Below are positions 50,961 to 51,045 of a stretch of 64,000 bases of DNA, piece after piece. The stretch is from a virus (taxonomy: Duplodnaviria > Heunggongvirae > Uroviricota > Caudoviricetes), in the IMG/VR virus record IMGVR_UViG_3300021387_001477; one strand, written 5' to 3'. Both the position numbers and the translations under genes were made by a program. The first letter of the stretch is position 1, and every line of letters begins with the position of its first letter. The notes beneath the pieces were generated by a model. It was not told the origin of the DNA. It ran no database searches and saw only the letters and a list, made by a program, of their open reading frames with translations.

Positions 50961-51045
50961 TCATATATAACAGGATTTGAACCCATTATCTTCAATAGTC
51001 TCCTCTCCTAAAACTATTAATGTTTTACCGTTAAACTAATATACT
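50961..51045 (-). ncRNA. tRNA-like RNA with enlarged anticodon arm, no encoded CCA
   Basis: UA-GUUU-AACGGUA-AAAC D arm; AUGGG-UUCAAAU-CCUGU T arm; 9-bp anticodon-position stem with 11-nt loop; promoter motif 51052-51062. Confidence 0.65.

What the first reader, a model, noticed from the sequence alone, without database searches (positions are those of the whole stretch)
50961..51045. tRNA mimic with a 12-nt-enlarged anticodon arm directly behind a promoter
Seen (minus): canonical U8-A9, D arm GUUU-AACGGUA-AAAC, T arm AUGGG-UUCAAAU-CCUGU and an AU-rich acceptor of about 6 bp. The anticodon arm is 29 nt (UUAAUAGUU/GACUAUUGA, loop UUAGGAGAGGA) rather than 17, and there is no CCA. Inference: not a decoding tRNA. 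It could be a decoy for anticodon nucleases or tRNA-binding defence proteins, an RNase P/Z processing signal for the downstream leader, or a decaying tRNA. Thg1 and RNA-repair-type enzymes are encoded in the same window.
Basis: partly seen in the sequence, partly recalled or inferred. Interest (0 to 1): 0.7.

Follow-up and report, generated by a model that had tools for sequence, protein, structure and literature searches.

The report
Non-decoding tRNA-shaped phage RNA gene
A giant rumen phage keeps a small gene, with its own promoter, for an RNA that folds like a tRNA but has a lengthened anticodon arm ending in an unchanging purine loop, so it cannot read codons and probably uses the tRNA shape for another, still untested job.

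Summary
On the minus strand at 51044-50962 lies an 83-nt tRNA-shaped sequence. Rfam's tRNA model scores it 28.5 bits against a threshold of 29 (E 7.6e-4), even with 19 nt where the 7-nt anticodon loop should be.

It starts 5 nt after the end of a promoter motif that occurs 18 times in the window (0.7 expected). A conserved trailer hairpin and a terminator-like hairpin follow it.

Five other copies exist, all in rumen or gut metagenomes:
- Four close ones: L017, L055, L056 and an RNA-library contig.
- One diverged one, L018, at 66% nucleotide identity.

Across the five aligned copies, 99% of the proposed pairs are kept. Three pairs of the lengthened anticodon helix and one T-stem pair changed on both sides. 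The 9-nt loop AGGAGAGGA never changes.

The "anticodon" left after removing the insert is not conserved (UUU in one lineage, CAA in the other), so this is not an intron-bearing tRNA. The substitution pattern also argues against random decay.

My best reading is a non-decoding, tRNA-scaffolded small RNA whose purine loop binds an unknown partner. The function is untested.

The family appears confined to this phage lineage. This scan has already noted similar non-decoding tRNA-shaped phage RNAs on at least eight other genomes.

The parts
51045..51081 (-). Promoter. A -33-like GTCTGA (51081-76; GTTTGA in L018), a -7 box TATATATG (51059-52), and ATG at 51049-47, where the phage's leaderless genes begin.
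   Evidence: The motif occurs 18 times against 0.71 expected. Its ATG is the start codon of at least 10 ORFs. It is invariant in L017, L055, L056 and L018.
50962..51044 (-). tRNA-shaped RNA of 83 nt, with acceptor, D arm, lengthened anticodon arm, 4-5-nt variable region and T arm. Discriminator G at 50962; no CCA.
   Evidence: Rfam tRNA 28.5 bits, E 7.6e-4. My model R1 gives 102-107 bits in L017, L055 and L056 and 80.7 bits in L018. 99.1% of pair cells are kept.
50992..51020 (-). Lengthened anticodon arm: a helix of 8-9 pairs (51020-51012 with 51000-50992) and an 11-nt loop.
   Evidence: Three pairs changed on both sides and two more on one side, with 100% of cells paired. The hairpin alone folds at z -4.4 in the window and -3.3 in L018.
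51001..51009 (-). Invariant purine loop AGGAGAGGA.
   Evidence: Identical in all five aligned copies, although the element is only 66% identical overall between the window and L018.
50927..50961 (-). 3' trailer with the conserved CAUUUUUCGA and a 6-pair hairpin (50945-50927) whose loop is UAACAA.
   Evidence: The 82-nt stretch 50880-50961, which includes this part, is 98.8% identical in close relatives. The hairpin is kept in L018 with changes on one side of two pairs.
50861..50904 (-). Terminator-like hairpin (50904-50871, 12 pairs including GGGG/CCCC) followed by the U-rich tail AUUUAUACUAUAU.
   Evidence: Seen in the minimum-energy fold. At the same place L018 has GGGGCGG...CCGCCCC followed by U7. 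The simple scanner missed it because the loop is 10 nt.
50504..50761 (-). Downstream 85-aa small membrane-protein gene. It is a neighbour and probably a separate unit, with a -7-like TAAATTTG at 50852-50845.
   Evidence: ORF and translation. An RNA-library contig of a relative spans 50489-51026.

Best explanation
This is an independently transcribed, non-decoding small RNA gene derived from a tRNA.

A host-type (Bacteroidota-like) promoter starts transcription about 5 nt before the tRNA-shaped body. A trailer hairpin and an intrinsic terminator end the unit after roughly 175 nt.

The RNA keeps the tRNA core, so it should fold into the L shape. That shape would let tRNA-handling enzymes recognise, trim or stabilise it. 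The preserved core consists of:
- U8, A14, G18-G19 and A21;
- the G10-C25 pair with G45;
- the A15-U48 pair;
- the T loop UUCRANU.

The anticodon stem is lengthened from 5 to 8-9 pairs. It ends in an 11-12-nt loop carrying the invariant AGGAGAGGA. That loop is the working end.

Inferred mechanism: the loop binds a partner in trans while the tRNA body serves as chassis and address label. The partner could be:
- a pyrimidine-rich RNA, odds about 0.3; the CCUCC tail of 16S rRNA is the one obvious complement;
- a host or phage protein that it titrates, odds about 0.25.

What is shown: the gene's anatomy, its conservation pattern, and its presence in an RNA library. What is inferred: processing, stability, the partner and the benefit to the phage.
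For: - tRNA likeness: 28.5, 28.3 and 25.2 bits against Rfam's tRNA model in the window, L017 and L018, despite a 12-nt insert.
- Five aligned copies: 99.1% of cells paired, against 38-56% when the 3' partners are slid. Four pairs changed on both sides, three of them in the lengthened helix.
- All substitutions among the four close copies are neutral to the structure: U.G to U-A, A-U to G.U, R57, U20C and variable-region positions.
- The loop AGGAGAGGA is invariant at 66% overall identity. By my own arithmetic the chance is about 0.66^9 = 0.02.
- The residual anticodon is not conserved: ARAGORN, forced to allow introns, calls Lys-UUU in L017 and Leu-CAA in L018. Positions 33 and 37 covary as a pair.
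- The unit has its own promoter motif and a conserved terminator-like hairpin.
- No conserved ORF: 10 codons from the 5' AUG in the window against 44 in L018 (my reading of the sequence).
- A contig from a size-fractionated RNA library of a relative covers 50489-51026. It lists about 36 substitutions and 11 indels within 50489-50805 but only 5 differences within 50806-51026; a further 5 differences are not listed.
Against: - There are effectively only two independent lineages, so the covariation rests on a single comparison.
- The acceptor stem is weak. It is 6 A/U pairs in the window and 4 pairs, a bulge and 1 pair in L018. Free-energy folding does not recover it, so trimming by RNase P or Z is not assured.
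- Overall nucleotide identity of the element (94-95%, and 66% to L018) is no higher than that of the neighbouring genes. The signal lies in the pattern of change, not the rate.
- No candidate target was found. Every exact complement in the window lies antisense to a gene.
- No ends, abundance or CCA addition have been observed.
- Bacteroidota ribosomes are reported to hide the anti-Shine-Dalgarno tail (my knowledge, not tested here), which weakens the 16S idea.
Confidence: 0.6

Rival explanations
1. A 5' module of the downstream mRNA acting in cis. The tRNA shape would recruit RNase P, Z or E to cut a long primary transcript (tRNA-like, leader, small membrane gene) and so set the mRNA's 5' end or stability.
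For: It is on the same strand, 200 nt upstream of the 85-aa gene. That order is kept in L017, L018, L055 and L056. One RNA-library contig of a relative runs from inside the tRNA-like sequence (51026) to just past the small gene (50489). In the window lineage the terminator's U tail is poor.
Against: A conserved terminator-like hairpin lies between them, and in L018 it has a clean U7 tail. A -7-like box TAAATTTG sits at 50852-50845, ahead of the small gene. This model gives no reason for an invariant purine loop or a covarying lengthened arm. A contig spanning two genes does not prove a single transcript (warning).
Confidence: 0.15
2. A decoy for a defence nuclease or toxin that targets tRNA. 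The tRNA body attracts the host effector and the altered arm makes the RNA uncleavable or inhibitory.
For: The phage invests heavily in tRNA repair. RlaP lies 0.85 kb away and a Thg1-like gene 7.8 kb away. Earlier unchecked notes from this scan record RtcB, an Rnl2-like ligase and Pth2 elsewhere in the genome. Jumbo phages are known to carry such tool kits (PMC7824862). The elbow and core are better kept than the acceptor end.
Against: A purine-only loop without U33, on an arm 4 pairs too long, does not imitate any anticodon loop that a known anticodon nuclease cuts (my knowledge). Gene proximity is weak evidence. No defence system or partner has been identified.
Confidence: 0.12
3. A genuine decoding tRNA whose 9-12-nt insert is removed after transcription, as a mini-intron cut out and resealed by the phage's RtcB-type ligase.
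For: Removing AGGAGAGGAG from the window copy leaves GUUUUAC, a Lys-UUU loop with U33 and A37. ARAGORN reports this for L017 at a lowered threshold. Earlier notes record an RtcB and many tRNA introns in this genome.
Against: The same operation on L018 gives GCCAAGC (CAA, with C33), so the anticodon is not conserved. Positions 32-38 and 33-37 would be Watson-Crick pairs and they covary, which fits a helix and not an anticodon loop. There is no bulge-helix-bulge motif, and 12 nt is far too short for a group I intron (reading). ARAGORN with introns allowed at its default score finds nothing.
Confidence: 0.05
4. A dying tRNA pseudogene with no function, left over from a tRNA cluster that once preceded the 229-aa gene.
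For: Distant homologues of the 229-aa protein (36% identity) sit directly after ordinary tRNA genes: Leu, Leu, Met, Gln and Cys in L031, and Cys in L032. Related jumbo phages have no copy of this element. The acceptor stem is degenerate in L018.
Against: At 66% identity, 22 of 23 modelled pairs still hold, with four double changes. The loop is invariant, and the promoter and terminator are retained. Within the close lineage every change is neutral to the structure.
Confidence: 0.08

Closest known systems
Phage T4 stable RNAs C and D (species 1 and 2 RNA; rnaC, rnaD). From my own knowledge; also named as closest in earlier notes of this scan.
   Same: Phage-encoded, non-decoding small RNAs with tRNA-like parts. 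They are made alongside tRNAs and their function has long been unknown.
   Different: The T4 RNAs are 120-140 nt, lie inside the tRNA cluster and keep only part of the tRNA shape. This RNA keeps the whole cloverleaf core, lies more than 30 kb from the tRNA cluster, has its own promoter and terminator, and carries a specific purine loop. No sequence relation was tested.
Canonical tRNA (Rfam RF00005)
   Same: D arm, T arm, U8-A9, G18-G19, UUCRANU T loop, A15-U48 pair and G45. It scores within 0.5 bit of the family threshold.
   Different: The anticodon stem has 8-9 pairs instead of 5, and the loop has 11-12 nt instead of 7. There is no U33 and no conserved anticodon. The acceptor stem has 6 pairs or fewer.
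Engineered 'tRNA scaffold' for expressing RNAs in E. coli (Ponchon and Dardel; extended in PMC3753655, listed)
   Same: A foreign stem-loop replaces the anticodon loop of a tRNA, so that the cell folds, trims and protects it like a tRNA. That is the architecture seen here.
   Different: The scaffold is a laboratory design and this is a natural gene. Whether it is processed the same way is untested.
Bacterial YrlA / Y RNA-like RNAs with a tRNA-like domain, partners of Ro/Rsr in RNA repair (my knowledge; role in jumbo phages mentioned in PMC7824862)
   Same: A non-decoding RNA that mimics the tRNA elbow, in genomes that encode RNA-repair enzymes.
   Different: YrlA is circularly permuted relative to tRNA, with its ends in the arm that replaces the anticodon stem, and it binds Ro. 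Here the topology is that of a normal tRNA. Rfam gave no YrlA match, and none of the 30 window proteins scanned against Pfam matched TROVE.
Bacillus cereus 'tRNA-Other' pseudo-tRNA and murid herpesvirus 68 tRNA-miRNA (TMER) genes (my knowledge)
   Same: tRNA-derived RNAs that do not decode and serve as regulators or processing handles. TMERs also carry hairpins downstream of the tRNA-like part.
   Different: They come from different organisms and use different machinery. None has a lengthened anticodon helix with a purine loop.

Membership tests
Decoding tRNA (RF00005) | Score at or above the curated threshold and detection by tRNA finders | tested here: not met
   28.5 bits against 29. ARAGORN with default settings finds nothing, and Rfam at gathering thresholds finds nothing.
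Decoding tRNA (RF00005) | 5-pair anticodon stem, 7-nt loop with U33, and an anticodon conserved among orthologues | tested here: not met
   The helix has 8-9 pairs and the loop 11-12 nt. The purine block has no U. Forced readings give UUU against CAA.
Decoding tRNA (RF00005) | Core tertiary nucleotides (U8, A14, G18-G19, T loop, 15-48 pair) | tested here: met
   Present and invariant in all five aligned copies.
Decoding tRNA (RF00005) | 7-pair acceptor stem, CCA end, aminoacylation | tested here: inconclusive
   6 A/U pairs in the window and 4+1 pairs with a bulge in L018. CCA is not encoded, but most tRNAs of related phages do not encode it either. Charging cannot be tested here.
Intron-containing tRNA (group I, or bulge-helix-bulge type) | An intron with a ribozyme core or a bulge-helix-bulge motif, whose removal restores the same anticodon in relatives | tested here: not met
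   The insert is 12 nt and forms a plain hairpin. The restored loops differ between lineages.
tmRNA | tRNA-like domain plus a tag reading frame and pseudoknots | tested here: not met
   ARAGORN finds no tmRNA and Rfam gives no match. The element is only 83 nt.
YrlA / Y RNA | Permuted tRNA-like domain with a Ro-binding stem and a linked Ro/TROVE gene | tested here: not met
   No Rfam match and normal tRNA topology. None of the 30 window proteins scanned matched TROVE. The rest of the genome could not be searched.
Phage non-decoding tRNA-like stable RNAs (T4 rnaC/rnaD type) | Phage-encoded, tRNA-like, no usable anticodon, conserved among relatives | tested here: met
   This is a loose functional class and not a sequence family.
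Phage non-decoding tRNA-like stable RNAs (T4 rnaC/rnaD type) | Accumulates as a stable RNA processed by RNase P | not testable with these tools
   Only assembled contigs of RNA libraries were available. They cannot show ends.

The most novel reading that the evidence does not exclude
The RNA docks on the ribosome through its tRNA body. Its Shine-Dalgarno-like loop (AGGAG...AGGA) on the lengthened arm then engages the 16S anti-Shine-Dalgarno tail, which Bacteroidota normally hide. This would re-tune host ribosomes in favour of the phage's many leaderless mRNAs. It would be a viral RNA that reprograms translation initiation by combining tRNA mimicry and mRNA mimicry.
Probability: 0.04. Interest if true: 0.9.

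Novelty: new variant of a known kind. Interest (0 to 1): 0.5.

Why it matters
Phages have been known since T4 to make tRNA-like RNAs that do not decode, and nobody knows what they do.

This example is unusually clean:
- the tRNA core is intact;
- one structural change is clearly under selection (4 extra pairs);
- a 9-nt invariant loop marks where to mutate;
- it has its own promoter and terminator;
- it is a single copy away from the tRNA cluster.

That makes it a tractable case for asking what such RNAs bind.

It also shows that standard annotation (ARAGORN, Rfam thresholds) misses these genes. The host-type leaderless promoter motif found along the way is useful for annotating this rumen phage lineage.

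Tried and rejected
**Searches for more copies**
- ARAGORN with default settings and Rfam at gathering thresholds found nothing in the window.
- GenBank phages, distant mode, 1.5 kb: no match.
- IMG/VR: the exact 23-mer gave no match. The D-arm/T-arm pattern gave 15 unrelated ordinary tRNAs. The pattern including the loop gave 0. The 218-aa protein gave no relatives.
- JGI metagenomes, loop pattern: 9 hits, none homologous on inspection.
- GTDB genomes: 0 hits.
- L001, a 334-kb phage whose RlaP is 35% identical, has no such element near that gene.
- Model R1 on five related IMG/VR jumbo phages found only ordinary cluster tRNAs at 38 bits or less.
- The lone weak hit outside a tRNA cluster (L057) is a coding leucine-rich-repeat array.
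- Distant homologues of the 229-aa protein (33-45% identity; L028-L037) carry no copy.

**Origin and targets**
- No ancestral tRNA type could be assigned.
- Target search: every exact TCCTCTCCT in the window lies antisense to a gene, so it reflects purine-rich coding and is not a target.
- Whole-element free-energy z-scores are unremarkable, at -1.2 and -0.7.

**Neighbouring proteins and the genome**
- Pfam, PHROGs and PDB gave nothing for the 218-aa, 229-aa and 85-aa neighbours.
- No whole genome is held for this window, so the rest of the phage could not be searched.

**RNA libraries**
- Three metatranscriptomes (X2, X3, X5) have contigs only over 50473-50805 and none over the tRNA-like region. 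This is no evidence of absence, because small structured RNAs are lost from such libraries and contigs.
- Their stops at 50790-50805 are at most a weak hint of a separate mRNA start. No DNA run was laid beside them, and X5 has a loose end there.

Full report
**1. What is there**

Read on the minus strand, 51044-50962 gives:
- GUAUAU (acceptor 5' strand), then U8-A9;
- GUUU-AACGGUA-AAAC (D arm), then A26;
- UUAAUAGUU-UUAGGAGAGGA-GACUAUUGA (anticodon arm, 29 nt);
- AGAU(A) (variable region);
- AUGGG-UUCAAAU-CCUGU (T arm), then U;
- AUAUAU (acceptor 3' strand), then G.

Rfam's tRNA covariance model aligns the whole element (model positions 1-71) at 28.5 bits. The curated threshold is 29. The E-value is 7.6e-4 for 601 nt searched against 4227 families, with 19 nt in place of the 7-nt anticodon loop. 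Scaled to this one family over the 64-kb window, that is about 2e-5 (my arithmetic), so the resemblance is not chance.

Standard annotation misses it. ARAGORN with default settings and Rfam at gathering thresholds return nothing.

**2. Genomic setting**

No whole genome is held for the window. Earlier notes of this scan describe it as part of a roughly 317-kb rumen/gut jumbo phage with a tRNA cluster more than 30 kb upstream of the window, many group I introns and several ribozymes (unchecked by me).

The element lies in a 379-nt gap between two diverging units. One is a 218-aa gene on the plus strand (51141-51797). The other, on the minus strand, is an 85-aa small membrane-protein gene (50761-50504) followed by a 229-aa gene (50427-49738). 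None of the three proteins matches Pfam, PHROGs or the PDB.

An RlaP-family nucleotidyltransferase gene lies at 51899-53116 and a Thg1-like gene at 58811-59590. RlaP is predicted to restore nucleotides to cleaved tRNAs before ligation (PMC7824862).

**3. Promoter**

CCTTATATATGTnATGAA, allowing up to 3 mismatches, occurs 18 times in the window against 0.71 expected. In at least 10 cases its ATG is the start codon of an ORF. The phage therefore uses it for leaderless genes.

The motif contains a box TAnnT(T/A)TG, which resembles the Bacteroidota -7 element TAnnTTTG (my knowledge). Most genes in the window lack a Shine-Dalgarno sequence and have A/T-rich leaders. Both points fit a Bacteroidota host.

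The perfect copy at 51062-51045 ends one base before G1 of the tRNA-like sequence. If transcription starts at the A of ATG, as it does for the leaderless genes, the RNA carries a 5-nt leader, AUGAA. The motif and a -33-like GT(C/T)TGA are conserved in all relatives.

**4. End of the unit**

After the discriminator come three features:
- a conserved CAUUUUUCGA;
- a 6-pair hairpin (50945-50927) with the conserved loop UAACAA;
- a 12-pair hairpin (50904-50871) followed by AUUUAUACUAUAU.

At the same place L018 has GGGGCGG...CCGCCCC followed by U7, a textbook intrinsic terminator. The trailer is 98.8% identical among the close relatives, more than the tRNA-like part at 94-95%.

The natural reading is a unit of about 175 nt: promoter, tRNA-shaped RNA, trailer, terminator. 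A -7-like TAAATTTG at 50852-50845 could serve the small gene separately.

**5. Relatives**

Homologues of the 229-aa protein led to L017 (93% amino-acid identity) and L018 (58%). Homologues of the 218-aa protein led to L055 and L056 (89%). All four carry the element in the same place:
- Rfam tRNA scores 28.3 bits in L017 and 25.2 bits in L018.
- My model R1 scores 102-107 bits in the close copies and 80.7 bits in L018.

L017, L055 and L056 also have an extra 118-aa gene upstream of the promoter that the window lacks.

A sixth copy is a 533-nt contig from a size-fractionated RNA library of a bovine gut sample. It covers 50489-51026.

**6. Pattern of change**

Among the four close copies, every difference inside the element is neutral to the structure: U.G to U-A, A-U to G.U, A57 to G, U20 to C, and positions 44 and 46.

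Between the window and L018 the element is only 66% identical, about the same as the 229-aa gene at 65%. Yet on the model-guided alignment of five copies, 99.1% of pair cells are standard pairs. With the 3' partners slid by 1-3 columns that figure falls to 38-56%.

Four pairs changed on both sides. Three are in the anticodon helix (U-A/U.G to C-G, A-U to G-C, U-A to C-G) and one is in the T stem. An eighth pair of that helix (U-A to C-G) is hidden by an alignment gap but is plain in the sequences. In the acceptor, U4-A69 becomes C-G when L018 is aligned by pairing (my reading).

The nine loop bases AGGAGAGGA are identical in all copies. Only two lineages are truly independent, so this is good but not overwhelming evidence.

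**7. Why it is not a decoding tRNA, spliced or otherwise**

The lengthened part of the arm covaries as a helix. The positions that would be 33 and 37 form U-A in the window and C-G in L018.

ARAGORN, forced to allow introns at lowered thresholds, calls L017 Lys(UUU) with a 10-nt intron and L018 Leu(CAA) with a 9-nt intron. An orthologous tRNA would not change identity in this way. At its default score, with introns allowed, ARAGORN finds nothing.

There is no bulge-helix-bulge motif, and 12 nt cannot hold a group I core.

No ORF is conserved either. The 5' AUG opens 10 codons in the window and 44 in L018.

**8. Why it is not simple decay**

That is half met at long range. Homologues of the 229-aa protein at 36% identity sit directly after ordinary tRNA genes (L031: Leu, Leu, Met, Gln, Cys), so the element probably descends from such a tRNA.

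The change is not random, though. The fold, the added pairs, the loop, the promoter and the terminator are all kept across the lineage.

**9. Distribution**

Nothing similar was found in:
- GenBank phages;
- IMG/VR;
- five related jumbo-phage records, which gave only ordinary tRNAs;
- JGI metagenomes;
- GTDB genomes.

The family seems confined to one rumen phage lineage.

**10. Mechanism**

The anatomy and its conservation are shown. The following is inferred:
- The tRNA core gives folding, stability and recognition by tRNA-handling enzymes. The engineered "tRNA scaffold" works the same way (PMC3753655, listed).
- The purine loop on a longer arm is the specificity element and binds a partner in trans.

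No complementary target exists in the window, because all exact complements lie antisense to genes. The loop contains AGGAG and AGGA, which match the CCUCC tail of 16S rRNA over 5 pairs. The host type rarely uses that pairing, so this remains a speculative lead.

A decoy role against tRNA-directed defence is possible given the repair genes nearby. However, the loop does not imitate any anticodon loop.

**11. Relation to earlier notes**

This scan has already recorded at least eight non-decoding tRNA-shaped RNAs in other phages. Their follow-up agents also named the T4 RNAs C and D as the closest known. The present case is therefore another member of a recurring and poorly described class. It is distinguished by an intact core, a lengthened covarying arm and an invariant purine loop.

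Noticed in passing
window, 18 sites, e.g. 578-595(+), 23007-23024(+), 29145-29162(+), 30174-30191(+), 45030-45047(+), 48563-48580(+), 50423-50440(-), 51128-51145(+): The promoter motif (C/T)CTTATAnnTGnnATG recurs 18 times against 0.7 expected. Its ATG is usually the gene's start codon, so many genes of this phage appear to be leaderless. The -7 box resembles the Bacteroidota TAnnTTTG, and most genes lack a Shine-Dalgarno sequence.
   Followed up: partly
window 55240-55175 (-): The same promoter motif, with ATA in place of ATG, is followed at once by a hairpin of about 45 nt (AAACCUAAAGGAAUAU...AUAUCCUUAGGUUU) and a U-rich tail. It looks like a tiny stand-alone RNA gene. A third copy of the motif without ATG is at 48554-48537 (-).
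   Followed up: no
L055 2108-2464, L056 2111-2467; partly in L017 1-100: Close relatives carry an extra 118-aa gene (phrog_5321, unknown function) with its own leaderless promoter, between the 218-aa gene and the tRNA-like gene. The window lacks it. The insertion or deletion ends just upstream of the conserved promoter region.
   Followed up: partly
L055 3854-5654: In a close relative the RlaP gene product is called as 761 aa or more, with a faint LAGLIDADG match, against 405 aa in the window. This may be an intein or a homing-endonuclease insertion. That relative also has an extra 234-aa gene before RlaP.
   Followed up: no
L031 634-1100 and L032 78-150: Distant homologues of the 229-aa protein (36% identity) lie directly downstream of ordinary tRNA genes (Leu-UAG, Leu-UAA, Met, Gln, Cys). 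This hints that the protein family, whose function is unknown, travels with tRNA genes.
   Followed up: partly
window 50927-50961 (-): The 3' trailer of the tRNA-like RNA (CAUUUUUCGA plus a hairpin with loop UAACAA) is more conserved than the tRNA-like part itself. The 82-nt stretch 50880-50961 is 98.8% identical in close relatives. It may be a functional module in its own right.
   Followed up: partly
window 51049-51017 (-): Because the promoter motif ends in ATG, the RNA would begin with AUG like a leaderless mRNA. That opens 10 codons (MKYISLTVKH) in the window and 44 in L018. The frame is not conserved, but ribosomes might still engage this 5' end.
   Followed up: partly
window 50790 (RNA run X5): One metatranscriptome contig covering the small membrane gene continues beyond 50790 with 39 letters that match nothing in the stretch laid (49700-51900). 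It may be a chimeric assembly or a join to RNA from elsewhere.
   Followed up: no
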